DNA of 64,000 bases from an uncultured bacterium (GTDB lineage: Bacteria > Patescibacteriota > JABMPQ01 > CAVVCK01), in assembly GCA_963746775.1 (NCBI GenBank), contig CAVVCK010000002.1, forward strand, positions 367,592 through 431,591. The letters are read 5' to 3'. Position numbers and translations under genes: made by a program. The notes beneath the pieces are model-generated. The model worked only from the letters and a program-made list of their open reading frames with translations. It had not been told where the DNA came from and ran no database searches. This document shows positions 30,612-47,721 of this stretch, piece by piece (within the stretch, counting starts at the first letter, position 1; each line of letters starts with the position of its first letter).

Positions 30612-31535
30612 TTATTTCAATCCATCTTTATAATAATCCGCTGCACTCTCTGGCGTAATCGGATTAATCACTACTCCTGACCCTATCTCTATCCCCGCCC
30701 AAGTACTGCCTCTGGGAATTACTTTCATATACAAATGTTGGTCTTCATCATGAATTACTTGATGAAAATAATAATTATAAGGAAGTCCTAGCTTTTTTAT
30801 TTTCCTTAAAATATGTTTTAGAATTTTAGCAAAAGAATATTGCTCTTCTTTATTTAGATTAGTTACATTATCAAGATGCCTAATTGGCATAATCCAAATT
30901 TCATAGTTATGCATAGAAGCATAAGGGCAAAAAGCAATCACGTGTTCATCTCTATAAACCATCCTAGGACCTTTTAATTCCGATATGATGGTATCACAAT
31001 AAACACAAGTTCCATATTTTAACTTATATTCCTGCATTTTCTGTGATTTATCCAGTAAATGCGGAGGAAGAAAGCTAGTAGCAAAAATTTGCGAATGAGG
31101 ATGAAGTAGAGATGCTCCGGCTGTTTTACCACTATTTTTAAAAATTAAAATATATTCTATTTTTTCATCTCTCGATATTTCCTTTGTCCTTTTACTATAA
31201 ACTTTTAAAATCTTAGCTATATGTTCTATAGAGTGTTTTTCTAAATCATTAGCATGATCAACTGTCTCTACTACTATTTCCTGATATCCATAAGCCCTAG
31301 AATTATTCTCTGTTACTGCTGGAAATTTATTAGGAATAACTACTACTCGGTCTTTTCCAGAACCGGAAACTAATAACTTTTTAGCTTTTTTCAAATTTTC
31401 CTGGCAAAAAGGACATAATTTTTTGGCTTCTTTTAATTTTGTTTCACCTGTTTGATGTGGCCTCTTAGCTCTTCCTGGAGCTACTATGACATATTTATCT
31501 TGAATATAGTCTTTGCGAATTTCACTGTTTGGCAT
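30612..31535 (-). CDS. galT: Galactose-1-phosphate uridylyltransferase
   Basis: 307 aa; CPFC zinc site and HPHSQ active-site motif. Confidence 0.75.
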   Translation of the reverse strand: MPNSEIRKDYIQDKYVIVAPGRAKRPHQTGETKLKEAKKLCPFCQENLKKAKKLLVSGSGKDRVVVIPNKFPAVTENNSRAYGYQEIVVETVDHANDLEKHSIEHIAKILKVYSKRTKEISRDEKIEYILIFKNSGKTAGASLLHPHSQIFATSFLPPHLLDKSQKMQEYKLKYGTCVYCDTIISELKGPRMVYRDEHVIAFCPYASMHNYEIWIMPIRHLDNVTNLNKEEQYSFAKILKHILRKIKKLGLPYNYYFHQVIHDEDQHLYMKVIPRGSTWAGIEIGSGVVINPITPESAADYYKDGLK

Positions 31536-31931
31536 GTTTTTATTTATTTATTCGATTTATTTTTTATTTCTAGAAGAAACCCAATTTTCTAATTTATCTT
31601 TATCCCAAAGGTTTACTAAATTTTCTGGTTTTATGCCTGCTTTTCTAACCCTATAGATTCTTCTAATATATCTTATTAAAGTTGAAGGTGATAAAGGATA
31701 TTTATCTATTTCCTTGCCATTAGTTGATCTCATTTTTTCCGTTATTAGTAACTCATCATGTATTTCCCTTAATTTTTTACTCCCTTTTAATTCTTCTAAT
31801 TCTCTCCTCTGGAATGAAGATGAATGAAACCTCTGGCATTACTTGTTCGCTACTCTCTATTTTCTTTATTGTCTTCAGCTTCAAAGCTGGCAGTTTCTGA
31901 TTTTAAATACCTACCTTAAGTTTCCATAAAA

Positions 31932-33098
31932 TTACTTAGATTTATTTATTACTGAATTAAAAATCTTTAAATGTTTTCTTGCTACTTTCTCCCAAGTTGT
32001 TTTTCGTCCAAATGCATAGGCTTTTTTTTCTATTTTCTTATGTATGTTTGGATGATCTAAAATATAATTTACCTTTTTTGCTATATCTTTGGAATCATTA
32101 AAATTTACTAGAAACCCGCGTAAATTTTTTCCAATCATTTCTTTGGCATAAATATAAGGAGTTGATACTACGCATCTGCCACAAGCAATTGCATAGGCCA
32201 ATGTTCCCGAAGAAACTTGCGCAGCCCCCTTGTAAGGTGTTAAATAAATATCAGATGCCTGAAAATAATTTATTAGTTCCCTCTCAGTTAAATATTTATT
32301 AACCCGCATAATATATTTATCCACTTTTAGCTCTTTAGCTCTTAACATTGTTTTCTTCAAATATTTATCAACTTCTTTTTTCCTTGATGGATGAATAGCA
32401 CCAATTATTAAGTAAACAATATTTTTATGTTTTTTAACTACATAAGGTAATGCTTCAATTACTAAATCAATACCTTTGTGTGAATTAATTAAGCCAATTG
32501 ATGATAAAACCTTTTTATTGCTTAATTTTAACTTATCTTTTATTCTATTTTGATTAATATATTTAACCTGAGGCGTACCATGATATATAACTTTTAACTT
32601 ATTTTTAGAAATTCCAGTTTCATCTATTAAAGTTTTTTTGGCTAACCCAGTTGTTAAAATAATTTTTCTACAGTATTTTGAAAATTTTTTTAACAGCTCA
32701 ATTCTTGACTTTTTTCTCCTGGCTTCTTTTGTTATTGGTACAGTATGAAGCGACATTACTATGGGTACTTTTAAATTTTTTAATAATTGTATTAATAATC
32801 TGCCATCATGTTTTCCAAAAATCCCAAACTCATGCTGAATATAAACTAAATCAGCCCCAGAATTATTAATATACTTAGCAGCCTCACGATAAGAACTAAT
32901 TTTTTCTTTCTCTATTATTCTTTTTACTTCTTTCGGGTATTTTTTTTTAAATTTATCAATTGCTAATATAGAAATATTTACTTTAGGATTTACTTTACTT
33001 AAAGCTATGAACAAATTTCTGGCATAGGTGGCAATTCCACATTCTTTTGGTGGATAAGTAGAAATCATAATAATATTAAATTTTTGCTTTTCTACCAT
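31932..33098 (-). CDS. Glycosyltransferase family 4 (tandem paralog 1)
   Basis: 388 aa; N-terminal STYPPKECGIATYARNL; C-terminal GT-B (Glycos_transf_1-like) region. Confidence 0.65.
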   Translation of the reverse strand: MVEKQKFNIIMISTYPPKECGIATYARNLFIALSKVNPKVNISILAIDKFKKKYPKEVKRIIEKEKISSYREAAKYINNSGADLVYIQHEFGIFGKHDGRLLIQLLKNLKVPIVMSLHTVPITKEARRKKSRIELLKKFSKYCRKIILTTGLAKKTLIDETGISKNKLKVIYHGTPQVKYINQNRIKDKLKLSNKKVLSSIGLINSHKGIDLVIEALPYVVKKHKNIVYLIIGAIHPSRKKEVDKYLKKTMLRAKELKVDKYIMRVNKYLTERELINYFQASDIYLTPYKGAAQVSSGTLAYAIACGRCVVSTPYIYAKEMIGKNLRGFLVNFNDSKDIAKKVNYILDHPNIHKKIEKKAYAFGRKTTWEKVARKHLKIFNSVINKSK

Positions 33099-33104
33099 AT
33101 TCTT

Positions 33105-34292
33105 TTATTTCCTAACTATTTTTAAGAATAATTTAACATACTTATTTGCCACCTCTTCCCAAATCATTGTTTGTCCATAATGATATGCTTTTTCTTCTAT
33201 TATCTTTTTTTGTTTTGGATGTGAAAATAAATAATCTACTGCTTTATAAATTTGCAGAGAATTTCTAAAATTAATTAATATCCCTCTGCCTTCTGACAAA
33301 ACATCTTTGGCATATAAAAATTTTGTTGAGATAATTGCCTTACCACAACCTAACGCGTAAGAAACAACTCCGCTACTTGTCTGTTCTGGTACAAGATACG
33401 GTGTTATAAATATATCTGACGCTAGTAAGTAACGAATAATTTCTTTATATGTTAAATATTGCTCATAAAAAATAATATTGTTACTTAGCTTTAATTTTTT
33501 TACTTCTTTCTGTAAAAATTTATAATAACCTCTCGGTCTTCCTGGATGAGACTCACCCAATATTAAAAAAATAGTTTCTGGATACTTTTTCAATATTTTT
33601 GGCATAGCATAAATTACATATTCTAAACCCTTTTTTTGTCTAATTAAACCAAACGTTGAGATAAGCTTGTTATTTTTAAAACCTATTTTTTTCTTATATT
33701 TTACGACATTTTGTTTTGCTATATATGGCAACCCATGTGGAATAACTATTACTTTATTACTTGATACTTTATATTTATAAACTAACAAATCTTTTACTGG
33801 CTGAATCATTACTACAATTTTTTTTGAGTATTTGGCAATTTCTTTTGTGATTTTAATAAAATTTTTATCAACAATTTCAAATTTGTGTGGTTTTTTTTGA
33901 AAAGAATAAACCATATGCATTGTTGTCACACATGGTTTTTTTAACCTTTTTAAAAACTCTAATATTAATTCTCCATTATGCCCACCAAAAAGACTAAAAA
34001 CATGTTGTAAGCTGACAATATCAATCTTTGGATCATTATTGATAATTTTTGCAGCATTTATATAATCATTTTTATTATCTTGTCTTACTACCTTTATAAC
34101 TCGTGAAGAATATTTTCGTCTTTTCTTCGGTTCATCAATCGCCACAATATAAAAAGTAACTTTTGGTAAATTTTTTTTTACTGCTTCCTTTAAGGCCGTG
34201 GTAAAAGTTGCCATTCCACATTCTCTTGGTGGATAAGAAGAAAAGAAACAAACTCCAATTCTTTTATTTTTTAACTTTTTGATTAAATTCAT
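33105..34292 (-). CDS. Glycosyltransferase family 4 (tandem paralog 2)
   Basis: 395 aa; SSYPPRECGMATFTTAL; paralog of 31932..33098. Confidence 0.65.
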   Translation of the reverse strand: MNLIKKLKNKRIGVCFFSSYPPRECGMATFTTALKEAVKKNLPKVTFYIVAIDEPKKRRKYSSRVIKVVRQDNKNDYINAAKIINNDPKIDIVSLQHVFSLFGGHNGELILEFLKRLKKPCVTTMHMVYSFQKKPHKFEIVDKNFIKITKEIAKYSKKIVVMIQPVKDLLVYKYKVSSNKVIVIPHGLPYIAKQNVVKYKKKIGFKNNKLISTFGLIRQKKGLEYVIYAMPKILKKYPETIFLILGESHPGRPRGYYKFLQKEVKKLKLSNNIIFYEQYLTYKEIIRYLLASDIFITPYLVPEQTSSGVVSYALGCGKAIISTKFLYAKDVLSEGRGILINFRNSLQIYKAVDYLFSHPKQKKIIEEKAYHYGQTMIWEEVANKYVKLFLKIVRK

Positions 34293-34304
34293 ACTTATAA
34301 ATAT

Positions 34305-35306
34305 TTATATTTTGTCCCCCTTTATTGCTTCTAGAATTTCTGATAATTTGCATGAAGCTACTCCAACAACCGTATCCGCTCCTCCATAATAAACAAGCAA
34401 ATTATCATCTACAACCACCGCACCACAAGTAAAAACAACTTTGGGAATTAATCCTTCTATCTCATATTTTTCTTGGGGTTCTAAAATAAATCCCTTTGAT
34501 CTATAAATAATTTTCTCAGGATTATTCTTATCAATTAAAATAACACCTAATCTATATTTTCTTTCGCAGTCTATTGTTCCATAACCAGTCTTTACTTGGC
34601 GTCCAAGAGAACTCATTTTATCTACTCCATGATATATAAAAAGCCAACCTATGTCAGTTTTTATAGGAGGAGCACCTGCCCCAATTTTAAATCCATCCCA
34701 TTTACCTTTCCTTGTAGAAATTATTTTTTTATGCCCTCTCCATAAAGGTCTCTCTAAACTTTTAGAATAAGCTACGTAAATATTTGGTTCAATCCTATAA
34801 TAACAAACATAATAGCCATTAATTTTTTCAGGAAACAAAACTCCATTTTTATCTGGTGCATCAACTTCCGGAAGAAAAATTCCATGTTTTTCCCAATTCA
34901 AAAAATCTTTAGTTGAAGCCATAGCAATATTAACTCTCTCCTCTTTCATTATAGTTTCCGTTTGTTTTTTTCTTCCAAAGTAAGCTGTATACAATAAATA
35001 GTATTTACCACCTATCTCAGTAATTCTTGGATCTTCACAACCAGCTGGCTCATACCACTCCGTAGGTCCAAACACCGGATTTTCATATCTTTTTTCTAAA
35101 GTTACTCCATCTTTCTTAAAAATAGCATAACCAAGTCTAGAAATTAAAACATCACCAAATTTATCTTCTCCTCTTGCTCTATAAATAACATGAATTTTAT
35201 TGTCTTTATAAATTACCGCTGGATTAAAAACCATCTTTGATTCCCAAGAATGCTTTTTAATTGGCTTTAAAATTGGATTTTTAGAATATCTTTCTAGCTT
35301 AAACAT
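34305..35306 (-). CDS. Glycoside hydrolase family 130-like (beta-mannoside phosphorylase-like)
   Basis: 333 aa; five-bladed beta-propeller GH130/DUF377-type motifs (VFNPAV, YRARGED, GCEDPRI, YYGGAD). Confidence 0.6.
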   Translation of the reverse strand: MFKLERYSKNPILKPIKKHSWESKMVFNPAVIYKDNKIHVIYRARGEDKFGDVLISRLGYAIFKKDGVTLEKRYENPVFGPTEWYEPAGCEDPRITEIGGKYYLLYTAYFGRKKQTETIMKEERVNIAMASTKDFLNWEKHGIFLPEVDAPDKNGVLFPEKINGYYVCYYRIEPNIYVAYSKSLERPLWRGHKKIISTRKGKWDGFKIGAGAPPIKTDIGWLFIYHGVDKMSSLGRQVKTGYGTIDCERKYRLGVILIDKNNPEKIIYRSKGFILEPQEKYEIEGLIPKVVFTCGAVVVDDNLLVYYGGADTVVGVASCKLSEILEAIKGDKI

Positions 35307-35344
35307 TTGTTATTGTTTTTAGTAGCAAAATTAATACATAAAAA

Positions 35345-35375
35345 TTAAAGCTGTCTTTTCAAAAAACAGCTTTAA
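35345..35375 (-). terminator. Hairpin ttaaagctgt...acagctttaa downstream of murF
   Basis: 10-bp-arm inverted repeat with an A/T-rich loop. Confidence 0.4.
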
Positions 35376-35422
35376 TTTAAAGTTCTCGTTATATTTTAGC
35401 ACATTTTAGCTCAATAGTCTAG

Positions 35423-36652
35423 CTAAGATATAGTTTTATCTTCAAATTTATCAATAATTTTTTTCATCTCCATGCCATTAGATCCTTTAACCAAAACTAT
35501 AGTATTTGATTTAATATCCTTCGAAAGATACTCGGCTGCTTTCTCTGAGTTTTCAAACCATTTTAAGTTTCCCACATCAAAATTACTCTTTTTAGCTTCA
35601 TCTATAATATATTTTGAATTTTCTCCTACACAAATAATTTGATTAGCTATTTCTGCTGCTTTTTTGCCAACTTCTCGATGCCCTTCTTCAGTATAATCAC
35701 CTAATTCTAGCATATCACCCAATACTGCTATTTTATATTTATTTTTACCTAACATTTCTAAATTTTCTAAGGCAGCAGTGCATGATACTGGATTAGAATT
35801 ATAAGAATCATTTATTAAAGTAATATCTTTGTTCTTTTTTTTAATAATATTACCTCTATTTTTAATTGAATTTAATTTTCTAACATTAATTATTATTTCT
35901 TTCCATTCTAAATTGAAAACAAATCCACAAGCAATAGCTGCTAAAACTGAATAAATCATTATCATATTGAAAATACCTGGAATTTCAACGAAAGAATAAT
36001 TTTTTTTATAATGTAGAATAAATTGTAATCCATTCTCTGTAACTTTAACTTTTTCCGCCCAAACATCGGCTTTTGGATTTAATCCATAATACAATACTTT
36101 AGCCTTTGTAAAATCTTTCATCTGCCTAATATAATCATCATCATAATTCAATATGGCTGTTCCTTCTTTTGGTAATTCTTCAACTAAAATTTGTTTCTGC
36201 TTGGTTATTTCTTCTATTGAGCCAAAATATTCAATATGAGAAGGAGCTATTTTCGTTACTATGCCAATTTTAGGCCTAGTCATATTGGTAAAATGACGAA
36301 TACCTCCCTTTTTTCTCATTGTGGAGATTTCTAAAATTAATATTTTAGGAAATTTAATGTTTCCAAAAAGTATTTTAAATATATGAGGTATTTGAGAAAT
36401 AAATTTTGTAATTGTATTACAAATATCAATACGTAACACTTCTGCAGGTAGAGATAAGCTGGTGTTGCGTGTTAATCTTGTTTCTAAAACATCATATTTT
36501 GAAGTTAGAATATTTTTTATATATTCTTTTGTTGATGTTTTTCCTACACTCCCTGTAATATTTATTACAAATGGCTTATATTTTATTAAAACCATTCTAA
36601 CTGTTACATATAATAAATATTCTAAAATAATTCTTCTTATGTGTTTAATCAT
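35423..36652 (-). CDS. murF: UDP-N-acetylmuramoyl-tripeptide--D-alanyl-D-alanine ligase
   Basis: 409 aa; Mur ligase P-loop ITGSVGKTSTKE and the MurF-typical NDSYNSNP. Confidence 0.7.
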   Translation of the reverse strand: MIKHIRRIILEYLLYVTVRMVLIKYKPFVINITGSVGKTSTKEYIKNILTSKYDVLETRLTRNTSLSLPAEVLRIDICNTITKFISQIPHIFKILFGNIKFPKILILEISTMRKKGGIRHFTNMTRPKIGIVTKIAPSHIEYFGSIEEITKQKQILVEELPKEGTAILNYDDDYIRQMKDFTKAKVLYYGLNPKADVWAEKVKVTENGLQFILHYKKNYSFVEIPGIFNMIMIYSVLAAIACGFVFNLEWKEIIINVRKLNSIKNRGNIIKKKNKDITLINDSYNSNPVSCTAALENLEMLGKNKYKIAVLGDMLELGDYTEEGHREVGKKAAEIANQIICVGENSKYIIDEAKKSNFDVGNLKWFENSEKAAEYLSKDIKSNTIVLVKGSNGMEMKKIIDKFEDKTIS

Positions 36653-36658
36653 GAACTT

Positions 36659-37552
36659 TTAAATATGAACTTGATATTTATTTTTAGCCTTTTTTATCAA
36701 ATATTCAACCATCCTATCGTTAATATCATATTTTAGATCTTCTATTATAGGAACAAAATTAAGAGGAAAATTAACTTCAAAAATCTTTAAATTACCACTT
36801 TTATCATAAACAAAATCCACTGCTCCTAATTCTATATCTAGGGTTGATACAGCCTTTACTAATATTTTTTCATCTTCTTTTGGTAATTTTATTATTTCTC
36901 TTTTTCTTGTAGTTTGGTCAACATTAGACCTAAAATCATCACTAGAACTGACATTAGTATTTTTATAAGCAATTTCTAATTTATCACCTAAAATCACAGC
37001 CCTATTTGAATAAGAAGGTTTTCCAATATCAATAAATTCTCTTATTACCAGCTCATCAACATTTTCCGATCTCAAATAATCCACTACTGAAAAAAGAGAT
37101 GATAATGAATCTATTTTAAGAACTCCTACACCGCAACTACCGCCTACGACTTTCAAAATAACAGGAAAACCACCTACATAATCAACATATTTTTTTAGTA
37201 AATCCCGATTTTCACTTAAGTCAAATATTGTTTTGGGCACAGGAACATTCTCCTTTTGATGAACAAAAAAAGAAGTAGGATATTTAGAAATTGATCTTTT
37301 ATAATCTTTATAAAATGTAGTTAGTTCTTTGCTTAACAGAAATTTCTCTAGCGTTTGACATCTCTTTGCAATATATGGTCTATATAACATATCGCCCTTT
37401 TCTATTTTAATATTATTAGTATAGTCATAGGTTTCAATATAGAGCTCATGAAAATCTACTTTTAATTTTTCACAGGAAGATCTTAAATATTCAACTATTT
37501 CGGGTTTTGTATTTTTTTTGCATATACAATAAAATTTCATTTTTTTATACAT
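36659..37552 (-). CDS. RimK-like ATP-grasp ligase (tandem paralog 1)
   Basis: 297 aa; GGFPVILKVVGGSCGVGVLKIDS and EVNFP ATP-grasp motifs. The Ddl alternative was considered but the N-terminal Ddl motifs are absent. Confidence 0.55.
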   Translation of the reverse strand: MYKKMKFYCICKKNTKPEIVEYLRSSCEKLKVDFHELYIETYDYTNNIKIEKGDMLYRPYIAKRCQTLEKFLLSKELTTFYKDYKRSISKYPTSFFVHQKENVPVPKTIFDLSENRDLLKKYVDYVGGFPVILKVVGGSCGVGVLKIDSLSSLFSVVDYLRSENVDELVIREFIDIGKPSYSNRAVILGDKLEIAYKNTNVSSSDDFRSNVDQTTRKREIIKLPKEDEKILVKAVSTLDIELGAVDFVYDKSGNLKIFEVNFPLNFVPIIEDLKYDINDRMVEYLIKKAKNKYQVHI

Positions 37553-37616
37553 TATTTTATTTATATAATAATTTTGTTCTCAATTCAAAGATTACAAATA
37601 TTATGCTTTTACATCT

Positions 37617-38510
37617 TTATCTTTTTTGTTTTTTAAAAACACTAATAGCATAATCAAAAAGATGCTCTGTTGGACTTATGCCAGTATACTTTCTAAATCC
37701 ACCAAACCCTGGACAGTTTTCTATTTCTAAAACATATACTCTATTTTTATATTTTAATAAATCAACCCCCAATACATCATTTTTTGTTACTTTAGCTAAT
37801 TTTTCTGCAATATTTTTCATCTCTTTGCTTAATTTTGCCTTTTCGCCTGATCCACCTTGATGTAAATTACCTCTAAAATCATTCTTCGCTGCTATTCTTT
37901 TATAAACTCCTAATACTTTATACCCAACTACTAAAACTCTATAATTACTTCTTACTGGAATGTATTCTTGTATTAGCAATCCTGTTTTTGATTTAAAATA
38001 ATTTTTGAATTTATTAGCATCCTTTTCGCTAGTTAATTTTTCTACTTCTTTACCCATCCAGCCATGAGGATCTTTTATTATCACAGGAAGTTTTACATTT
38101 TCTATTATATTTTTAAAGCAGAAATAGCTATTTACAATATATGTTTTAGGATGATTTAACTTTAATTTTTTTAAGATATTAATAAAGCTCACTTTATCCG
38201 AATTAGTCCTACCATCACAAAAACTCTGGTTGATTACTATTTTTTTATTTTTATCTAAATATTTTGCTAAAAAATATATTTCTTCCACAAAACTTTTCAA
38301 GTCTGGTCTAAAAATAAAAACATCATAGTCTAATAAATTATGTTTACAACAATAGACATTCAGACTACCATTGTCCCATTTACAGACAATATCTTCCATA
38401 AAAAATAGATTTACAGAAATATTTAATTTCCTTCTTTTAATAATATTGTCTATGTCTTTATATAAAGTGGCTTTGGGAAACTGTTTTAAACCAATTGTAG
38501 CAATCTTCAT
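37617..38510 (-). CDS. RimK-like ATP-grasp ligase (tandem paralog 2)
   Basis: 297 aa; LPVIIKDPHGWMGKEV and LEIENCPGFGGFRKYTG resemble the RimK C-terminal LEVNSSPGLEGIEKATG. Confidence 0.55.
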   Translation of the reverse strand: MKIATIGLKQFPKATLYKDIDNIIKRRKLNISVNLFFMEDIVCKWDNGSLNVYCCKHNLLDYDVFIFRPDLKSFVEEIYFLAKYLDKNKKIVINQSFCDGRTNSDKVSFINILKKLKLNHPKTYIVNSYFCFKNIIENVKLPVIIKDPHGWMGKEVEKLTSEKDANKFKNYFKSKTGLLIQEYIPVRSNYRVLVVGYKVLGVYKRIAAKNDFRGNLHQGGSGEKAKLSKEMKNIAEKLAKVTKNDVLGVDLLKYKNRVYVLEIENCPGFGGFRKYTGISPTEHLFDYAISVFKKQKR

Positions 38511-38527
38511 ATTACATTGTTTGTTAT

Positions 38528-39952
38528 TTATTTGGTTGTATCGACTAGAAATCTCTTCAAATCTCTCTTCCCAATAATTACTTTATACCGTAAAAGTTTC
38601 CTGTTAGTCACATTAGTTTTGGAAATAACTTTAATTCCTGATAATATAAAGGTTATTTTAATATAAGGACGTAAACTTAAACCATGTGATGACCTAATCC
38701 AAGCAACATCAACGATTTCACCATTTTCCTTTTGTAAAATATTTCTAACTTTTCTAGCTTCATTAGTAGCCTCTTTATCTGTCAACTCAGGACTTAATTC
38801 TTTTGTCTCTAATAAATTTAATATGTCTTGATAACCTAATTTACTAGCCAGTTCTCTATCTATTGAAGTCGAATCAGCTCCCGTATCTATTTTAGCCATA
38901 ACTTCAAAATTTTTATCGCCTTCTTTACTAAACAATTTCACTTTTTCAATACTTCCAATCACTTCTCTATTAGACACTTCTTCTACTCTTCTCTCAACAT
39001 CCCCTCCAAATAAATCTTTAGCAATCCTAATGCCATGCGCCACTGATTTTACTTTTAAACCTTTAACTCTCTTCAATCTTCCAGCCAAGCCTTCTAAATT
39101 GGCTACTTGAATATCAAGCCCTGGCCTGGCATTTAGTTCTAAAATTTCCGGACCGTATTTTTTATCAATAGCTATATCTACCCCTAAATATCCTAAATTA
39201 GTAGCAACTTGCGCTTCTACGCTCATTTCTAGTATTTTATCCCACTCTGGTATTTGAAAATCTGATAACTTTTGATTAGTGTCAGGGTGGCTATCAATTA
39301 TTTTTCTAGATGGTAATTTAGTCATGGCAGTCGTAGTCATCCCCGAACCAATATCAATTCCAACTGCTACTGCTCCTTGGGCAATATTAGCTCTTCCTTG
39401 AGATCTTTCGGTGGGAAGACGCATCATGGACATTACCGGCACTTTATTAAACACAATTATTCTGATATCCGGAATTCCCCGGCGAGTATAGTTTTTAAAA
39501 ATTGGATGAGTAGTTAATTTTCTTTCAATAAAAGCTGTATCTGGTAAACCTTGCAGGGAAAAACTACCATCTAAAATATCTAATACATGTGATTTTAATT
39601 TTTCAAAATCCCAAAGATTACCGGAACTTGTATACCATTCTCTTCTACGTAATGGCAATTTTAAAAATGCTTCTTTTTTCTTACTACGACGTAATAAGAC
39701 TATCCCCTCTCCACCAAAACCTCTATTAGGTTTTATAACAAAATTCGCCGGTAATTTTTTCCAATCAAAACTTTCAAAATCTTTTATAGTTCTGATAACA
39801 CCATATAATCTAGGCGTAGATATGCCAGTTTTTATTAATATTTCTTTCGAATCCAATTTACTGTCAGCCAATCTGACTGCCTTTTTTTTATTGTAGGGAC
39901 GAATAAAATTTAGGTTTCTTTCATTCATTCCTAAAATTTCATTTTGAGCCAT
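38528..39952 (-). CDS. Alpha-L-glutamate-ligase-like ATP-grasp enzyme fused to a C-terminal retropepsin-like (DTGA) aspartyl protease domain
   Basis: 474 aa; N-terminal ILGMNERNLNFIRPYN...IKPNRGFGGEGIVLL...ELNARPGL (ATP-grasp); C-terminal VMAKIDTGADSTSID (retropepsin / RimK-associated Zn_protease-family motif). Confidence 0.6.
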   Translation of the reverse strand: MAQNEILGMNERNLNFIRPYNKKKAVRLADSKLDSKEILIKTGISTPRLYGVIRTIKDFESFDWKKLPANFVIKPNRGFGGEGIVLLRRSKKKEAFLKLPLRRREWYTSSGNLWDFEKLKSHVLDILDGSFSLQGLPDTAFIERKLTTHPIFKNYTRRGIPDIRIIVFNKVPVMSMMRLPTERSQGRANIAQGAVAVGIDIGSGMTTTAMTKLPSRKIIDSHPDTNQKLSDFQIPEWDKILEMSVEAQVATNLGYLGVDIAIDKKYGPEILELNARPGLDIQVANLEGLAGRLKRVKGLKVKSVAHGIRIAKDLFGGDVERRVEEVSNREVIGSIEKVKLFSKEGDKNFEVMAKIDTGADSTSIDRELASKLGYQDILNLLETKELSPELTDKEATNEARKVRNILQKENGEIVDVAWIRSSHGLSLRPYIKITFILSGIKVISKTNVTNRKLLRYKVIIGKRDLKRFLVDTTK

Positions 39953-41527
39953 TTATTTCTTATTATCTTGGCGAGTAAATCTTTTTATTTCTCTAAATCG
40001 GATATATTCAGAAATACGAAGTCCTACCCATTTGGCCATTAAAATATTTATAACAAAAGTGAGTAATAAGCTTTCTGGATAAGCAAGTATAAAAGTCGTT
40101 AAAACATCCCAGCTAGCTACATAATAACATGCTACAGAAACTAAAATCGTTTCCAGAGATAGCATAATAGCTGTACGTGGCCCTTTTTCCATTTGAATAG
40201 CAATAAATTTTTCTACCATGATAATTAATACCAGTATAGGCAAGATCGAAATACCAATGATACCAGTTCTATTTGTAGCTGCTCCAACTACAAACATAGC
40301 CAAAATAGTAAAAGCAACGATAGATAGTACTATCGCCATTCTAGGTAAATACAAAAATCTGAATTTTCTCAATAATAATCTAACCAAGGTTGCTGCTACT
40401 AATATAACTATAAATATGGTTAATCCGTATTTTAAACCAGTAGCTAAAAATGAAAGTGTAATAATTGATGGTGTATAAATACCAAATGTTTTAATTCCTA
40501 AAAATTGACGAAAAAAGGCAATAATAGTAGCAATAATCGGCAACATAAGCATTAAAATAATATTATCTGTCGATACTCCTTTATTGATTAAATAATTAAT
40601 TGTATAGCTCATAAAATTCGTTATGCCTAAATCTTTTATTCCGCGCTCGCTATAGAAAGTAATTAAATTATGACTAATTCCCGCCTCTCTAATTGACTCT
40701 AATATCTCATCTGCTTTTTTGGCTTCAATTACATAATCAAGAGCAGATTTTTTAGTTAAAAGTATGTATTTTGGATTTAAAACATCAAAAGTGGATTGAG
40801 CATAACGAGCAATAGAAGTGAATCCACCTTCCGTAATATTAATAACAGCTTTATTATTAACATTTAAACTTTCTAAATCTTCACTCTTTTGAGCAAATTT
40901 TGATAAGACATTTAAACCCAAATTCCCCGATGTCCAAACTATAATAGCTGATGAATTCTTTACAACTTCGCTATTTTCTAAAAGCGAATCAGCCAATGTC
41001 CCCTCTACAATATAGTCAGGATCAGCTTTATCATTTCTGATATCAAATAAATATACCCTTTCTCTCGAAGCTGTTTTCCTTATAGGCTGTAAATCTTCTT
41101 CCAGAATAGATTTATCCGTTATTAAAATTATAGAATCTTCATATATTTTTACTATTAATTCATCAGTATCTTCTCCTGCCTCATTTTTGCTTTTTAAAAT
41201 TACACTGTAGTCTCCTGAGTTATTATATAAATGTTCTATTTTCGAACCTGCTCCTGATTCACCATCTCCAAAATCCCATTCATATTGGGTATTGCTATTA
41301 TCATCCTCTTCATTCGTAATTGCCTTAAAAACTACTTTATAACCTAATAATTGTTCTGAATCTGGCCCAGCATTAGCTTTGGGAATTTTTATTTCTGGCT
41401 TATTTTCTTCAATATTTTCTTGATTTACATTATTATCTCCTGTCTTATTTTCGTCTTGAGCAAAAGCATAAGAAAAACCAAAAATAATCAAGCTTATTGT
41501 TAAAAATAATGTTATAAATTTTTTCAT
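39953..41527 (-). CDS. Secreted PKD-domain protein with a C-terminal 7TM domain (7TM receptor-like partner of ATP-grasp/retropepsin systems)
   Basis: 524 aa; signal peptide; PKD-like YEWDFGDGESGAGSKIEHLYNNSGDYSV; ~200-aa extracytoplasmic domain; seven predicted TM helices at the C-terminus. Confidence 0.5.
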   Translation of the reverse strand: MKKFITLFLTISLIIFGFSYAFAQDENKTGDNNVNQENIEENKPEIKIPKANAGPDSEQLLGYKVVFKAITNEEDDNSNTQYEWDFGDGESGAGSKIEHLYNNSGDYSVILKSKNEAGEDTDELIVKIYEDSIILITDKSILEEDLQPIRKTASRERVYLFDIRNDKADPDYIVEGTLADSLLENSEVVKNSSAIIVWTSGNLGLNVLSKFAQKSEDLESLNVNNKAVINITEGGFTSIARYAQSTFDVLNPKYILLTKKSALDYVIEAKKADEILESIREAGISHNLITFYSERGIKDLGITNFMSYTINYLINKGVSTDNIILMLMLPIIATIIAFFRQFLGIKTFGIYTPSIITLSFLATGLKYGLTIFIVILVAATLVRLLLRKFRFLYLPRMAIVLSIVAFTILAMFVVGAATNRTGIIGISILPILVLIIMVEKFIAIQMEKGPRTAIMLSLETILVSVACYYVASWDVLTTFILAYPESLLLTFVINILMAKWVGLRISEYIRFREIKRFTRQDNKK

Positions 41528-41584: not shown

Positions 41585-42067
41585 TTAATACTTTAACATT
41601 TTCTCTGAATTAGCATGGCAGATAGCTATTGCTAGGGCATCAGCCGCATCGTCTGGTTTAGGAATTACATCTAAATTAAGTAATATTTTCACCATTTTTT
41701 GCATTTGCATTTTTTCAGCCCGGCCATAACCCGTAAGTGCTTGCTTTACTTGAAGCGGCGTATATTCAAATACTAGTATTTTATTCCTACGTCCAGAAAC
41801 CATTAATACCCCCCTAGCTTGTGCCACTGTTATAACGGTTTTTACATTTTTAAAGAAAAAAAGCTCTTCACAAGCCATAACATCCGGTTTAAATTTTTTT
41901 ATAATTTTCTCAGTCTGTTTAAAAATTTCATTTAATCTATCAGGCATGGCTAGATTTGGTTTGGTTTCTATACAACCATAACTAATAGAATATAATTTGT
42001 TTCCTTCTTTTTTTATTAATCCAAAACCTGTCGTTGCTGTTCCTGGATCTATACCTAAAATTATCAT
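41585..42067 (-). CDS. ruvC: Holliday junction resolvase RuvC
   Basis: Likely start MIILGIDPGTATTGFG; RuvC catalytic D/E pattern. The track ORF extends 9 codons upstream to 42094. Confidence 0.85.
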   Translation of the reverse strand: MIILGIDPGTATTGFGLIKKEGNKLYSISYGCIETKPNLAMPDRLNEIFKQTEKIIKKFKPDVMACEELFFFKNVKTVITVAQARGVLMVSGRRNKILVFEYTPLQVKQALTGYGRAEKMQMQKMVKILLNLDVIPKPDDAADALAIAICHANSEKMLKY

Positions 42068-42144
42068 CATTAAAACATTAAAATATAAAAACATAGAAAC
42101 AAGAAATTAAAAATGTTTTTTTAATGTTCTCGTGTTCTAGCGTT

Positions 42145-42870
42145 TTAATTAATATTTGAATAAATCTCATTAACATCATCATGCTCTCCAAGTTCTTCCA
42201 TTAATTTCTCAACCTTTTCTAATATATTTTTATCATCAATTTTTACTGGATTTTTAGTAATTAATTCTACTTCTGAAGAATCAATCTTTATTCCTTCTTT
42301 TTCTAATATTTCTTTTAACTTTGATAATTTTTCAGGAACAATATAGATAACTATACTTGTATCTTCTTCTTTAATATCAGAAGCTTCATTATCAATAGCC
42401 AAAAGTTCAATTTCTTCTTTTTTATCATTAGAAACTTTGGAAATCCTAATAACTCCTTTTCGATCAAACATCCAGGAAACGCTTCCACTACCCCCTAATT
42501 TACCTTCATGATCAGATAAAATCTTTTTAATTTCTGATACTGTTCTATTCTTATTATCCGTAATAGCTTCAATAATCACTGCTATCCCGCCAGGACCATA
42601 AGCTTCGTAGACAACATCTTCTATTTGAGTACCACCATCGAGTTCACCTGTACCCTTCTTTATAGCTCTATCAATATTATCAATAGGCATATTAACTGCC
42701 CTAGCTTTATCAATAGCCAATCTCAACTTGTAATTAGCCTCAGGATCTCCTCCGCCATCTCGGGCGGCAATAGATACTATTTTAGATATTTTAGCAAAAA
42801 CATTGCTTTTTTTAGCATCAGCAATACCCTTTTTTCTTTTAATTGTAGACCATTTGGAATGACCTGACAT
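42145..42870 (-). CDS. yebC: YebC/PmpR family DNA-binding regulator
   Basis: 241 aa; MSGHSKWSTIKRKKG... is the canonical YebC N-terminus. Confidence 0.85.
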   Translation of the reverse strand: MSGHSKWSTIKRKKGIADAKKSNVFAKISKIVSIAARDGGGDPEANYKLRLAIDKARAVNMPIDNIDRAIKKGTGELDGGTQIEDVVYEAYGPGGIAVIIEAITDNKNRTVSEIKKILSDHEGKLGGSGSVSWMFDRKGVIRISKVSNDKKEEIELLAIDNEASDIKEEDTSIVIYIVPEKLSKLKEILEKEGIKIDSSEVELITKNPVKIDDKNILEKVEKLMEELGEHDDVNEIYSNIN

Positions 42871-45197: not shown

Positions 45198-46112
45198 TCA
45201 CTTTCCCAATTTATAAGTTTTATACGCCCAATCTATTAAACTTTTTGTTTCCTGAAATTGCTCTCCGTTTAAATCTTCCCCCAGAACAACTGTAATAATC
45301 TGATTACCTTGCCCATCATCTGATAATCCCAGAAAACAAAACCCAGCATTATCGGTAAAACCAGTTTTACCTGCCTTTATATGAGGATAATCAGCTAATA
45401 AAAGTTTATTTGTGCTTCTGATATGACGGCTAATTCCGTCTTCGGGTACAATATCATACTCTTTGGTAGTATCTGCTTCAATAAATTTATTATTATTAAA
45501 AGCATAATCCGCTAATTTAGCTAAATCTTCAGCTGTTGAATAATGTCCTTCGGCATCCAAGCCTGATGGATTAACAAAATGCGTATTTTTCATACCAAGT
45601 TCATCCGCTTTTTTGTTCATTCTAGAAATAAATACATTTAAATCACCTCCGGCGTATAAAGCTAAGGCTGAAGCGGCATCATTGCCAGAGGCAATTAAAG
45701 TCCCATAAAGGAGATCTCTCACTTTTAGTTTTTCCCCCTGTGCAAGATTAATATCTGCTCCTTCTAATTCAACAAAATCATTTGTAATAATTACCGAATC
45801 ATCTAAATTTATTTTATTATCTAGAGCTACAATAGATGTCATTATTTTAGTAATACTAGCCATTGCTAATTTTTGCCGAGCATTTTTTGCAAATAATATT
45901 TCGCCTGATTTTCTATCTAATACTATAGCTGATTTTGCTTCTAATTTTACTCCCAAACTATCGCTTATTTTTTGGGGTGCTTTAATATTTCTTGTTTCTG
46001 CATTTTCCGAAATATTACTATTATTGGCAACATATGATTCATTGCCAACACCACTATTAAAATTAAATATTTGTGAAGCACCTAATAAAATTGTAAATAA
46101 TATATTACTCAT
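45198..46112 (-). CDS. dacA: Serine-type D-Ala-D-Ala carboxypeptidase (PBP5/6-like, S11)
   Basis: 304 aa; SITK (SxxK), SGN, KTG motifs. Confidence 0.75.
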   Translation of the reverse strand: MSNILFTILLGASQIFNFNSGVGNESYVANNSNISENAETRNIKAPQKISDSLGVKLEAKSAIVLDRKSGEILFAKNARQKLAMASITKIMTSIVALDNKINLDDSVIITNDFVELEGADINLAQGEKLKVRDLLYGTLIASGNDAASALALYAGGDLNVFISRMNKKADELGMKNTHFVNPSGLDAEGHYSTAEDLAKLADYAFNNNKFIEADTTKEYDIVPEDGISRHIRSTNKLLLADYPHIKAGKTGFTDNAGFCFLGLSDDGQGNQIITVVLGEDLNGEQFQETKSLIDWAYKTYKLGK

Positions 46113-46128
46113 ATTTAAATGTTAGACA

Positions 46129-47721
46129 CTATTTAATACCTGATTTTAAATATTCAAATGCCATTTTGTCTGTTAAGTATTCTAGTGGAGCTCTATCGTC
46201 AGTTAAAATTAATTCATCCGGATCAAAAGATACTTTTTGCACAGAACTTTCCATAGATGATGACAAATTACGCAAATCATTATTGCCAATGCTGGGTGTA
46301 ATTTTCGAAAAATCAATACTATCAGAAGATGCCAAAACAAAATAGTTATAAGAATATTCTGAAGAAGCTACATAAACATTTTCAAATTCTGATGCCAGTG
46401 TATTAGTAATTGCTTTTAGTAGTTTAGAATCTGGAGAGAGGGCTACAATATTAATAGCTAAAACTCCTTTATTTGATAAATGCGAGGGTACTGTTTGAAA
46501 AAATTCACGAGTTACTAAATGAGCAGGAATATATAATTGCTTAGCAAAAGCATCAATTATAATTATATCATATTTTTTACTATTTTGGCGAAGAAAAATC
46601 CTGCCATCAGAATTATAAATATCTAAATTATCATATTTTAAATTAAATTTATCTTGGACAATATCAGTCAGTTTTTTATCTATTTCTACCCCATCTATTT
46701 TAAAATCAAAATCATTTTTTAACAAATTACTATACTGATGCACCATTGTTCCTCCAGCCAAGCCTAAAATTAAAATATCTTTCTGCTTGTCTTGATAATT
46801 GACATAAGGAGCAATGCTAAAATAATCATAATACCCCTCTGTTATACCTAGATTTTCTTTATACATAGAGCTATAGGCATTATCAGCCCCTAATTTTAAA
46901 TAATATATATCATCATTTTTTACAATATTTATATTTTGATAGATGGATTCATCTTTAAAAACAGTTTTTCCATATACTTTGTTTTTATCAAAGAATGACC
47001 AAACGAAAATTAATCCTATCAATAAAATAACAAGTATAATTGTCCATTTCTTTTTTAAAACTCTAGGTAATGTGAATATAATCAATATAGCCGCCGCAAT
47101 AAAAATAGTATTATTAGTTCCTAAGATTGGTATAAAAACCAAAGAAGGCAAAAAAGTGCCAAATATACTGCCAACTGTAGAATAAGCAAACACCAAACCA
47201 CTCTTTGTTCCTTCGTCTTTTTTTTCTCTATCTATTAATATTTTAATCATAAATGGACTCACAGCACCAAGAAGTGTTATTGGAACAATAAATAATAGTA
47301 GAGTAGTTATAAAAGAGCCTAATATAATAACTAGTGAAGCATAATTCTCTATTAAGAAATTTAGAGAAACAATTTTAGTAATAGGCTCGGTTAAAAATGG
47401 AATGATTAATATAAATAAAGAAGCTATAGAAATAATTTTCAAAATTAAATATTCATTTGGATTTTTATCAGCTAACTTGCCACCAAGATAATATCCTATA
47501 GATAAAAAAACCATAATTAAGCCAATAACATTTGTCCAAACAAATAATGAACTGCCAAAATATGGTGTTAACAACCTGGAAGCAGCAATCTCTATCGCCA
47601 TAATAGTAAAGCCAGACAAAAAAGCAACAAATAATAAATATTTGCTGCTAATTGTTATTTTGTCCGCCTCTGACGGCGAATCTGCCGATAGAGGCAGATT
47701 TTTTTGTTCTTGTGTTTTCAT
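46129..47721 (-). CDS. Fused polytopic membrane domain / spermidine-synthase-like aminopropyltransferase
   Basis: 530 aa; ~7 N-terminal TM helices; C-terminal ILILGLAGGTMV...GVEIDKKL...DIIIIDAF (class I SAM-MTase-like fold of the spermidine synthase family). Confidence 0.6.
   Translation of the reverse strand: MKTQEQKNLPLSADSPSEADKITISSKYLLFVAFLSGFTIMAIEIAASRLLTPYFGSSLFVWTNVIGLIMVFLSIGYYLGGKLADKNPNEYLILKIISIASLFILIIPFLTEPITKIVSLNFLIENYASLVIILGSFITTLLLFIVPITLLGAVSPFMIKILIDREKKDEGTKSGLVFAYSTVGSIFGTFLPSLVFIPILGTNNTIFIAAAILIIFTLPRVLKKKWTIILVILLIGLIFVWSFFDKNKVYGKTVFKDESIYQNINIVKNDDIYYLKLGADNAYSSMYKENLGITEGYYDYFSIAPYVNYQDKQKDILILGLAGGTMVHQYSNLLKNDFDFKIDGVEIDKKLTDIVQDKFNLKYDNLDIYNSDGRIFLRQNSKKYDIIIIDAFAKQLYIPAHLVTREFFQTVPSHLSNKGVLAINIVALSPDSKLLKAITNTLASEFENVYVASSEYSYNYFVLASSDSIDFSKITPSIGNNDLRNLSSSMESSVQKVSFDPDELILTDDRAPLEYLTDKMAFEYLKSGIK

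What the first reader, a model, noticed from the sequence alone, without database searches (positions are those of the whole stretch)
36659..41527. 7TM receptor-like protein + ATP-grasp/retropepsin fusion + two extra RimK-like ligases: candidate peptide-tagging/processing system next to murF
There are four co-directional, tightly spaced genes. 39953..41527 encodes a signal peptide, a PKD domain, an unknown ectodomain and a C-terminal 7TM. 38528..39952 encodes an alpha-L-glutamate-ligase-like ATP-grasp fused to a retropepsin-like DTGA protease domain; these are usually separate genes in the RimK-associated neighbourhoods predicted by comparative genomics. 37617..38510 and 36659..37552 are tandem RimK-like ATP-grasp paralogs. 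Such 7TM + ATP-grasp + aspartyl-peptidase neighbourhoods have been predicted to add and remove amino-acid tags on protein tails or to make peptide signals. To my knowledge none is experimentally characterised, and this version, with a fusion and three ligase domains, is unusual. Being adjacent to murF also leaves a cell-wall peptide link open.
Basis: partly seen in the sequence, partly recalled or inferred. Interest (0 to 1): 0.8.

Follow-up and report, generated by a model that had tools for sequence, protein, structure and literature searches.

The report
Rlo-like ligase–protease membrane module, CPR form
This low-GC, CPR-like bacterium carries a compact relative of the Pseudomonas rloABC envelope-stress operon: a membrane protein, an amino-acid ligase fused to the protease that trims its product, and extra ligases; the layout is standard across CPR bacteria, so it offers a minimal system for finding out what these enzymes make.

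Summary

**Already known.** The gene set is a homolog of rloABC of P. aeruginosa, studied genetically and biochemically in 2025. A protease–ligase hybrid (RimBK) has also been shown to be active. So "none characterised" is out of date.

**Not unusual in its lineage.**
- At least 582 species-level genomes encode relatives, and the best 80 are all CPR/Patescibacteria.
- The 7TM gene sits directly upstream of the fusion in effectively 77 of 77 loci, and ruvC lies upstream in 66 of 67.
- One to three (up to five) accessory ATP-grasp ligases follow in 71 of 76 loci.

**What differs from Rlo.**
- The protease is fused C-terminally to the RloC-type ligase, so it is cytoplasmic rather than secreted.
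- The 7TM partner has no inactive-transglutaminase domain. Here it carries PKD plus a flavodoxin-like α/β ectodomain; most CPR relatives have none.
- The accessory ligases are variable.

**murF.** It is the ordinary CPR MurF, and its adjacency is confined to this sub-clade.

**Most likely function (inferred).** Synthesis and trimming of acidic α-peptide (poly-Glu-like) chains at the membrane, for envelope homeostasis.

Verdict: new variant of a known kind, moderate interest.

The parts
39953..41527 (-). RloB-like membrane protein (524 aa): signal/anchor helix, PKD domain, α/β ectodomain, 7TM_transglut domain, cytoplasmic C-terminal helix
   Evidence: ORF. PF14402 E=3.4e-29, with PKD hits PF18911/PF00801. 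The NCBIfam RloB model matches only the 7TM part (protein residues 304-513 to profile positions 297-504 of 508). AF2 model pLDDT 80.7.
41153..41383 (-). PKD domain (aa 49-125), extracellular
40658..41137 (-). α/β (flavodoxin-like, five β-α units) ectodomain, aa 131-290; not a transglutaminase
39956..40615 (-). 7TM bundle plus the invariant cytoplasmic C-terminal helix G502-L-R504-x-x-E507-Y-x-R510-F511; conserved membrane residues E439, E459, E485
   Evidence: Hydropathy, positive-inside loops and conservation in A2. In 68 relatives this region alone is the partner protein. Translation checked.
38528..39952 (-). Fusion protein (474 aa): N-terminal RloC-type ATP-grasp ligase plus C-terminal RloA/RimB-type retropepsin; no signal peptide or TM segment, so cytoplasmic
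   Evidence: AF2 pLDDT 90.1 with a flexible linker at about 320-330. Maximum 19-residue hydropathy is 1.21.
38993..39952 (-). ATP-grasp ligase domain (aa 1-320); K74, D259, E272, N274 and R276 are invariant
   Evidence: PF14397 E=5.5e-71 and TIGR02291 281 bits. Invariant columns in A1/A3. Nearest folds are RimK, LysX/ArgX and cyanophycin synthetase.
38531..38965 (-). Retropepsin-like aspartic protease domain (aa 330-474); K354-x-D356-T-G-A359, R428 and R451 are invariant
   Evidence: Profile A4 hits only 9g58 (1.2e-8), 9g59 (4.9e-7) and 2pma (1.4e-5). PF05618 scores 27.1 bits against a cut-off of 27. DTGA is at nt 38876-38887.
37617..38510 (-). Accessory RimK-like ATP-grasp ligase A (297 aa); keeps DFRGNLHQGG and the D250/E263/N265 Mg-binding motif
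   Evidence: PF08443 E=7.7e-34 and TIGR00768 134.6 bits against a cut-off of 143.4. Best PDB hits are RimK 7qyr/5zct. Its orthogroup is present in about 29 loci. Motifs.
36659..37552 (-). Accessory RimK-like ATP-grasp ligase B (297 aa); Mg motif kept, but the RimK 'HRGG' loop is replaced by DQTT
   Evidence: PF08443 E=3e-17. Best PDB hit is RimK 5zct, E=1.5e-13. Rare orthogroup of 4 loci. Motifs.
35423..36652 (-). CPR-type MurF (409 aa, Mur M and C domains only); probably co-transcribed, but probably not a functional part of the module
   Evidence: TIGR01143 265 bits. CPR homologs are 400-445 aa. An ortholog sits in a dcw cluster. Adjacent to the array only in the window, L085 and L086/87; none found within about 10 kb in the 80 other loci.
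35342..35378 (-). Terminator-like hairpin (17-bp stem plus T-run); likely 3' end of the transcription unit
   Evidence: It is the only strong − strand terminator-like site between ruvC and GH130.
41585..42870 (-). ruvC (41585-42094) and yebC (42145-42870): conserved upstream synteny partners of the module
   Evidence: Pfam/NCBIfam for RuvC. RuvC is upstream in 66 of 67 loci and YebC in 58 of 62.

Best explanation
This is the CPR/Patescibacteria version of the Rlo (RloB-RloC-RloA) system, a membrane-associated 'writer plus eraser' for α-linked acidic peptide chains.

Shown:
- An RloB-type 7TM protein is encoded immediately upstream of, and probably translationally coupled to, a cytoplasmic RloC-type ATP-grasp ligase.
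- The C-terminus of that ligase carries an RloA/RimB-type retropepsin.
- Two further RimK-like ligases follow.

Inferred, step by step:
1. The RloC-type domain polymerises glutamate (or a similar acidic residue) through α-peptide bonds. It does this either as free chains or on a still-unknown acceptor at the inner face of the membrane.
2. The fused retropepsin dimerises and cuts these chains, so it limits their length and stimulates turnover. This is what RimB does for RimK.
3. The 7TM partner docks the enzyme through its invariant cytoplasmic helix, and it exports or presents the product. Its conserved membrane-embedded glutamates fit a transport role.
4. The accessory ligases start, extend or diversify the chain.
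5. The physiological output concerns the cell envelope or osmotic homeostasis, as in Pseudomonas.
For: Homology to all three Rlo components:
- 7TM_transglut E=3.4e-29, and the RloB model aligned over its whole 7TM part.
- TIGR02291, the RloC family, at 281 bits.
- The protease-domain profile hits only RloA-family crystal structures. 9G58 and 9G59 are from the Rlo paper.

Residues consistent with polyglutamate cleavage:
- K354-x-D356, R428 and R451 are invariant in 50 fusions. They align with the K-x-D, 'RP' and 'DR' motifs of the RloA structures.
- The R428-R451 spacing of 23 residues equals the spacing between R114 and R137 of RloA. Those two residues bind poly-Glu and are needed for function (PMC12239564).

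Ligase:
- The Mg/ATP residues are invariant.
- The nearest folds are RimK (a poly-α-Glu synthetase), LysX/ArgX and cyanophycin synthetase.

Experimental precedents:
- RimB stimulates RimK poly-α-Glu synthesis and cleaves poly-E, and a RimBK hybrid is active (PMC11957791).
- ΔrloB or ΔrloC suppresses ΔrloA1-3 (PMC12239564).

Conserved linkage and context:
- 7TM directly upstream in effectively 77 of 77 loci; accessory ligases in 71 of 76.
- TAA-ATG junction.
- Topology is N-out, C-in, with conserved E439, E459 and E485 and an invariant C-terminal helix.
- Related loci add TTL-like ligases and a MATCAP carboxypeptidase, enzymes that edit C-terminal tails.
Against: - No enzyme activity, substrate or product is known for RloC, RloB or any CPR member. 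Glutamate specificity is inferred only from the protease's conserved basic residues and from RimK analogy.
- The mapping of K354/R428/R451 onto RloA K46/R114/R137 rests on motif alignment and spacing, not on a residue-numbered alignment with P. aeruginosa RloA.
- The protease is cytoplasmic here but secreted in Pseudomonas. The two systems may therefore handle their product differently.
- The window encodes no protein with an EE terminus or a poly-acidic tract.
- Up to five different accessory ligases argue that the product may be a heteropeptide rather than plain poly-Glu.
Confidence: 0.55

Rival explanations
1. Protein-tail tagging. The ligases add amino acids to the C-terminus of a specific protein, and the retropepsin erases the tag. 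Candidates are the cytoplasmic tail of the 7TM partner itself, or ribosomal protein S6 as with RimK. This would be a bacterial analogue of the tubulin tail code.
For: - RimK/RimB act this way on RpsF (PMC11957791).
- LysX/ArgX, close structural neighbours, ligate onto the C-terminal Glu of LysW.
- In one subclade (P0196-P0240, and L030) the 7TM tail ends in EE or EEE, like S6.
- TTL-like ATP-grasp genes and a MATCAP carboxypeptidase recur in related loci.
Against: - The window's own 7TM tail ends in ...RQDNKK, and most CPR tails are short and basic. Only 1 of 81 locus-derived tails ends in EE.
- There is no EE-tailed or poly-acidic ORF in the 64-kb window.
- The gene gaps leave no room for a precursor-peptide gene.
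- The ligase is RloC-type, not RimK-type: PRK10446 scores 15.5 bits against a cut-off of 331.
Confidence: 0.2
2. Cell-wall precursor editing. The ATP-grasp array adds amino acids to the peptidoglycan stem peptide or to another envelope glycopolymer precursor, upstream or alongside MurF. The protease trims mistakes, and the 7TM protein couples this to export.
For: - MurF lies in the same predicted transcription unit, and it recurs after the ligase array in L085 and L086/87.
- A class A PBP neighbours the module in 56 of 80 loci, and GT4 and YdjC-like genes recur.
- An S11 D-Ala-D-Ala carboxypeptidase lies 3.7 kb upstream.
- Rlo mutants in Pseudomonas have cell-shape, hypo-osmotic and β-lactam phenotypes (PMC12239564).
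- From my own knowledge: ATP-grasp enzymes such as Ddl and the enterococcal D-Asp ligase do act on peptidoglycan precursors.
Against: - MurF is absent from 80 of 80 surveyed loci and from the closest long relative, L083.
- This MurF is the housekeeping type.
- None of the ligases scores as Ddl or as a Mur/pMur enzyme.
- The protease keeps the poly-E-binding residues of RloA.
- PBP adjacency could be inherited synteny within Moranbacteria.
Confidence: 0.15
3. Signal transduction. The 7TM protein is a receptor whose ectodomain senses an external cue and switches the cytoplasmic ligase/protease on or off. The peptide product would be an intracellular signal or an osmolyte.
For: - The ectodomains are modular and swappable: inactive transglutaminase in Proteobacteria, PKD plus an α/β domain here, and none in Moranbacteria.
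- The invariant cytoplasmic helix could transmit a signal.
- The Rlo paper raises glutamate/poly-glutamate homeostasis as one possibility.
Against: - 68 of 76 partners have no ectodomain at all, so sensing through it cannot be the core function.
- Conserved acidic residues inside the membrane suit transport at least as well.
- This reading is compatible with the best explanation, not exclusive of it.
Confidence: 0.1

Closest known systems
rloABC operon of Pseudomonas aeruginosa (RloA secreted retropepsins, RloB inactive-transglutaminase 7TM protein, RloC ATP-grasp; Lormand et al., mBio 2025, PMC12239564)
   Same: All three protein families are present and linked in one operon:
- 7TM_transglut membrane protein.
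- TIGR02291-type ATP-grasp.
- PF05618 retropepsin with the catalytic D-T-G-A and the basic residues used for poly-Glu binding.

   Different: - The protease has no signal peptide and is fused to the C-terminus of the ligase, so it is cytoplasmic rather than periplasmic.
- The 7TM protein has no inactive-transglutaminase domain. It has PKD plus a flavodoxin-like domain here, and nothing in most CPR relatives.
- Gene order is B, then the C-A fusion, followed by 0-5 extra ATP-grasp ligases.
- The host is CPR, whereas the paper found 96% of RloB hits in Proteobacteria.
RimK-RimB and the RimBK hybrid (Little et al., JBC 2025, PMC11957791)
   Same: - A cytoplasmic ATP-grasp α-L-glutamate ligase is paired with, or fused to, a retropepsin-like endopeptidase.
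- That peptidase cleaves poly-Glu and stimulates the ligase.
- The accessory ligases A and B, and the fold of the fusion's ligase domain, are closest to RimK.
   Different: - In RimBK the protease is N-terminal; here it is C-terminal, so this is probably an independent fusion.
- The ligase is RloC/ATPgrasp_ST-type, not RimK-type.
- A 7TM partner is obligatory here and absent from rim loci.
- RimBK is reported mainly in Flavobacteriales and Rhodobacterales.
7TM + inactive transglutaminase + ATP-grasp + aspartyl-peptidase neighbourhoods predicted by Iyer, Abhiman, Burroughs and Aravind (Mol Biosyst 2009; recalled from memory, the paper could not be read)
   Same: The same Pfam families that this work defined (PF14402, PF14397) co-occur here, with a predicted role in peptide synthesis or peptide tagging.
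   Different: - There is no transglutaminase domain.
- The protease is fused.
- The locus carries arrays of extra ligases.
I could not check whether the CPR form or this fusion was mentioned there.
Tubulin tail-editing enzymes (TTL/TTLL ATP-grasp ligases and the MATCAP carboxypeptidase)
   Same: Related CPR loci carry TTL-like ATP-grasp hits and a PF08014 MATCAP-family protein directly after the fusion. The logic is the same: one enzyme adds C-terminal residues and another removes them.
   Different: - The window itself has no MATCAP gene.
- No tubulin-like substrate is known.
- The similarity is at domain-family level only.

Membership tests
Rlo system (rloABC-type operon) | RloB: membrane protein with a C-terminal 7TM_transglut domain | tested here: met
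   PF14402 E=3.4e-29. The NCBIfam RloB model NF052267 aligns over profile positions 297-504 of 508, E=9.3e-21.
Rlo system (rloABC-type operon) | RloB: N-terminal periplasmic inactive-transglutaminase domain | tested here: not met
   - No PF14400 or transglutaminase hit.
- The RloB model scores 74 bits against a cut-off of 900, and only the 7TM part matches.
Rlo system (rloABC-type operon) | RloC: cytoplasmic TIGR02291/ATPgrasp_ST-type ATP-grasp with intact catalytic residues | tested here: met
   PF14397 E=5.5e-71. TIGR02291 scores 281.3 bits, just under its cut-off of 314.2. K74, D259, E272 and N274 are invariant.
Rlo system (rloABC-type operon) | RloA: retropepsin-like protease with catalytic D-T/S-G and basic substrate-channel residues | tested here: met
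   DTGA at residues 356-359. K354, R428 and R451 are invariant. The domain profile hits only 9g58, 9g59 and 2pma.
Rlo system (rloABC-type operon) | RloA is secreted (N-terminal signal peptide) and encoded as a separate gene | tested here: not met
   The protease is the C-terminal domain of a soluble 474-aa protein with no signal peptide and no TM segment.
Rlo system (rloABC-type operon) | Role in hypo-osmotic tolerance, cell shape, biofilm formation and β-lactam tolerance; loss of rloB or rloC suppresses loss of the proteases | not testable with these tools
   This needs genetics. It is known only for P. aeruginosa (PMC12239564).
RimK (ribosomal protein S6 L-glutamate ligase) | Equivalog-level similarity to S6 glutamate ligase (PRK10446) or the rimK_fam model | tested here: not met
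   PRK10446 (cut-off 331): fusion 15.5 bits, ligase A 72.5, ligase B 63.5. TIGR00768 (cut-off 143.4): 48, 134.6 and 84.2 bits. They are RimK-like in fold and family but not RimK orthologs.
RimBK hybrid | RimB protease domain N-terminal to a RimK-type ligase | tested here: not met
   The domain order is reversed and the ligase is RloC-type.
D-Ala-D-Ala ligase (Ddl) | Ddl family score and a Dala_Dala_lig N/C architecture for the 297-aa enzymes | tested here: not met
   PRK01372 scores 24.8 and 15.7 bits against a cut-off of 243. PF07478 hits only ligase B, at 18.4 bits against a cut-off of 24.
MurF (UDP-MurNAc-tripeptide D-Ala-D-Ala ligase), for the neighbouring 409-aa gene | MurF-type Mur ligase M and C domains, and orthology to the dcw-cluster MurF | tested here: met
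   TIGR01143 scores 265 bits (cut-off 288.6), far above the other Mur models. CPR homologs annotated as MurF are 400-445 aa with the same two domains. A 41%-identical homolog sits in an MraZ-RsmH-FtsI-MurF cluster. The canonical N-terminal Mur domain is missing, as it is in CPR MurFs generally.

The most novel reading that the evidence does not exclude
The module is a ribosome-independent peptide assembly line. A membrane-docked RloC-type ligase and up to five stand-alone ATP-grasp ligases would build a defined acidic hetero-oligopeptide or polymer. The fused retropepsin would cut it to length and the 7TM protein would export it. The result would be a previously unknown envelope or surface component that is near-universal in some CPR classes, and it would also reveal the long-sought product of the Rlo system in pathogens.
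Probability: 0.2. Interest if true: 0.8.

Novelty: new variant of a known kind. Interest (0 to 1): 0.55.

Why it matters
The product and substrate of the Rlo system are unknown, although the system affects antibiotic tolerance, biofilm formation and cell shape in P. aeruginosa. The CPR form narrows down what the system needs:
- The conserved core is the 7TM bundle with its cytoplasmic helix, the RloC-type ligase and the retropepsin.
- The transglutaminase ectodomain is dispensable.
- The protease can work in the cytoplasm, so its substrate must already exist there.

It also changes the evolutionary picture. The Rlo paper proposed that the locus arose from rim and became advantageous in Gammaproteobacteria, with 96% of RloB hits in Proteobacteria. 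Here the gene set is found in hundreds of CPR species, at a fixed position after yebC-ruvC.

These organisms have very small genomes yet keep 3 to 8 genes for this module, which suggests an important envelope function in poorly understood bacteria. The two-gene minimal versions (a 7TM-only protein plus the fusion) are convenient targets for biochemistry.

Tried and rejected
2. **The 7TM C-terminal tail as the general ligase substrate.** An EE/EEE terminus exists only in a subclade. The window's tail ends in NKK and most tails are basic.
3. **The truncated MurF-like gene as a module-specific fourth ligase.** Rejected: CPR MurFs are generally this short, and one ortholog sits in a dcw cluster.
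4. **The two 297-aa genes as recent tandem duplicates or as Ddl.** Rejected.
5. **A substrate gene in the window** (EE terminus or poly-acidic tract). None found.
6. **Promoter scan.** Uninformative: 73 sites found against 71.5 expected.
8. **Things that could not be done.** The source record could not be named: the exact look-up found no gene and the clusters carry no names. Iyer et al. 2009 could not be read. The AFDB fold library was unavailable.
9. **Literature searches for a CPR description of the module.** Nothing found.

Full report
**Observation**

All are on the − strand, in a run of − strand genes with about 28% G+C.

The 524-aa product of 39953..41527 has these parts:
- An N-terminal hydrophobic helix.
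- A PKD domain, residues 49-125.
- A confidently modelled α/β ectodomain, residues ~131-290.
- A C-terminal 7TM_transglut domain, PF14402, E=3.4e-29.

The 474-aa product of 38528..39952 has two parts:
- An ATPgrasp_ST/TIGR02291-type ligase (E=5.5e-71; 281 bits).
- A retropepsin-like domain with D356-T-G-A359.

Each of the two 297-aa genes encodes a RimK-like ATP-grasp. The 7TM stop codon abuts the fusion's ATG. The remaining gaps are 17, 64 and 6 bp. The only strong − strand terminator-like hairpin follows the murF-like gene at 35378-35342. The five genes therefore probably form one transcription unit.

**What it is**

NCBIfam now names the relevant families RloB and RloA. That led to Lormand et al. 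2025 (PMC12239564). In P. aeruginosa, rloABC encodes three proteins:
- RloA, a secreted retropepsin that cleaves runs of 8 or more glutamates.
- RloC, a cytoplasmic ATP-grasp.

Loss of the three RloA paralogs causes hypo-osmotic, cell-shape, biofilm and β-lactam defects. Deleting rloB or rloC suppresses those defects.

A companion paper (PMC11957791) shows that the cytoplasmic homolog RimB both cleaves poly-Glu and stimulates poly-α-Glu synthesis by RimK. It also shows that a natural RimB-RimK hybrid is active.

**Protease domain**

Pfam support is borderline: 27.1 bits against a cut-off of 27. I therefore built a profile of the domain from 14 fusions (A4). Against all PDB sequences it hits only the two RloA-family crystal structures from the Rlo paper and Lpg0085:
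- 9g58, E=1.2e-8
- 9g59, E=4.9e-7
- 2pma, E=1.4e-5

K354-x-D356-T-G-A, R428 and R451 are invariant in 50 fusions. They align with the K-x-D, 'RP' and 'DR' motifs of those structures. The 23-residue spacing between R428 and R451 equals the spacing between RloA R114 and R137, the residues shown to bind poly-Glu and to be needed in vivo. This mapping is an inference from motifs and spacing.

**Ligase domain**

The AlphaFold model of the fusion is confident (pLDDT 90.1), with two domains joined by a flexible linker. The nearest solved folds of the ligase domain all ligate amino acids onto peptide or C-terminal carboxylates:
- RimK
- LysX/ArgX
- cyanophycin synthetase

The protein has no signal peptide and no TM segment, so the protease must be cytoplasmic. 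This differs from RloA and resembles RimB.

**How common it is**

A protein search found more than 5,000 relatives. The top 120 are all full-length fusions of at least 48% identity, from Parcu-, Moran-, Doudna-, Andersen- and other Patescibacteria. A scan of one genome per species found at least 582 genomes with relatives, and the best 80 are all CPR.

I surveyed 80 non-duplicate loci by tblastn and ORF clustering:

| Feature | Count |
|---|---|
| 7TM gene directly upstream of the fusion | 76 of 77, plus L057 where the genes overlap |
| ruvC upstream | 66 of 67 |
| yebC upstream | 58 of 62 |
| Accessory ATP-grasp domains after the fusion: 0 / 1 / 2 / 3 | 5 / 20 / 36 / 15 of 76 loci |

Some accessory ligases are fused in pairs. 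One close relative has five (L084). The fusion with extra ligases is therefore the norm in this lineage, not an oddity.

The accessory ligases fall into at least three broad families. Ligase A belongs to an orthogroup seen in about 29 loci and ligase B to a rare one seen in 4. The two share only 31% identity over 121 aa. Both keep the Mg/ATP motif. Ligase B has replaced the RimK 'HRGG' loop with DQTT.

**The 7TM partner**

Only 8 of the 76 partners have the PKD-plus-ectodomain form. The other 68 are 7TM-only proteins of about 215-230 aa. A separate search shows that the PKD form recurs in more than 100 CPR proteins.

The conserved core of RloB-type proteins is therefore the TM bundle. The topology is N-out, C-in, with basic cytoplasmic loops. 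The conserved features are membrane residues E439, E459 and E485, and an invariant cytoplasmic helix G-L-R-x-x-E-Y-x-R-F. The bundle has no convincing solved homolog.

**murF and the cell wall**

The neighbouring 409-aa ligase lacks the canonical N-terminal Mur domain. This is typical for CPR MurFs, which are 400-445 aa with only the M and C domains. A 41%-identical homolog sits in an MraZ-RsmH-FtsI-MurF cluster, so the gene is the housekeeping MurF.

None of the 80 surveyed loci has it within about 10 kb, and neither does the closest long relative, L083, which shares both flanks with the window. It does recur right after the ligase array in L085 (40% identity over the full length) and in L086/87. 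A sub-clade-level link therefore exists, but its meaning is unclear.

A class A PBP neighbours the module in 56 loci, and GT4, YdjC-like and MATCAP genes recur. Together with the Pseudomonas phenotypes, this keeps an envelope role plausible, but it does not show a peptidoglycan substrate.

**Mechanism**

My best reading, at a confidence of about 0.55, has four parts:
1. The RloC-type domain makes α-linked acidic (poly-Glu-like) chains at the inner face of the membrane.
2. The fused retropepsin limits their length and drives turnover, as RimB does for RimK.
3. The 7TM protein docks the enzyme and exports or presents the product.
4. The accessory ligases start, extend or diversify the chain.

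The homologies, conserved residues, topology and gene linkage are shown. The chemistry, the acceptor and the role of the 7TM protein are inferred.

There are three rivals:
- **Protein-tail tagging.** It is supported by the EE-ended 7TM tails in one subclade and by the TTL/MATCAP neighbours. It is weakened by the window's basic tail and by the absence of any EE-tailed ORF.
- **Peptidoglycan-precursor editing.**
- **A receptor role for the 7TM protein.**

**Novelty and verdict**

The gene families and their association are known, and one relative has been characterised. What I could not find described is the CPR-wide form, which has four distinctive features:
- An independent C-terminal protease fusion.
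- No transglutaminase domain.
- Variable ligase arrays.
- Fixed synteny after yebC-ruvC.

I classify it as a new variant of a known kind, with interest 0.55. It is a useful minimal system, it constrains models of Rlo function, and it contradicts a Gammaproteobacteria-centred origin. It is not a new kind of system.

Noticed in passing
P0196-P0240; L030:3385-4044: In one subclade of PKD-7TM and 7TM-only partners (Peregrinibacteria-like, Kerfeldbacteria) the cytoplasmic C-terminal tail ends in EE or EEE. This resembles the Glu-Glu terminus of ribosomal protein S6 that RimK extends. The window's own protein ends in NKK.
   Followed up: partly
L050:11128-12480 and 11 other loci (cluster c4): A MATCAP-family (PF08014, tubulin tyrosine carboxypeptidase family) protein of about 450 aa is encoded right after the ligases in 12 loci. 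TTL-like hits occur in some of the accessory ATP-grasp genes.
   Followed up: partly
L084:10444-15585: A close relative (fusion 71% identical) carries five consecutive stand-alone ATP-grasp genes after the fusion. Some Moranbacteria loci have pairs fused into 590-660 aa proteins (for example L041:11386-13293).
   Followed up: partly
window 41585-42870 and loci L001-L085: The order yebC-ruvC-7TM-fusion is kept across several CPR classes (ruvC in 66 of 67 loci, yebC in 58 of 62). This is unusually stable synteny for this group. I did not examine whether it reflects co-regulation or only inheritance.
   Followed up: partly
56 of 80 related loci, e.g. L021:7187-9754: A class A penicillin-binding protein (transglycosylase plus transpeptidase plus Big_7, about 850 aa) lies just downstream of the ligase array in most Moranbacteria loci, and upstream in the Doudna- and Andersenbacteria loci. 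The window has none within 20 kb.
   Followed up: partly
window 35423-36652: This MurF, like CPR MurFs in general (400-445 aa), lacks the N-terminal Mur-ligase domain that binds the UDP-MurNAc moiety in canonical MurF. A short hydrophobic N-terminus precedes the P-loop at residue 34.
   Followed up: partly
L004:12392-13846, L013:13261-15102: Two recurrent neighbours of the module have no Pfam hit: a 484-500 aa protein in 5 loci and a 613-632 aa protein in 4 loci.
   Followed up: no
window 30612-35306: Directly downstream lies a glycan-related block: a GH130 phosphorylase (34305-35306) and a GalT/HIT-like gene (30612-31535), both by Pfam, with two 388-395 aa ORFs in between (31932-34292). I did not scan those two ORFs. 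The ORFs at the same position in the close relative L083 carry Glycos_transf_1 hits, and the whole block is conserved there.
   Followed up: partly
window 40218-40478 (+): An 86-aa ORF runs antisense inside the 7TM gene. It is most likely a chance ORF in AT-rich DNA.
   Followed up: no
window 46129-47721: A 530-aa protein with a spermine/spermidine-synthase-like domain only in its C-terminal part lies next to an S11 D-Ala-D-Ala carboxypeptidase (45198-46112). The pair is conserved in L083.
   Followed up: no
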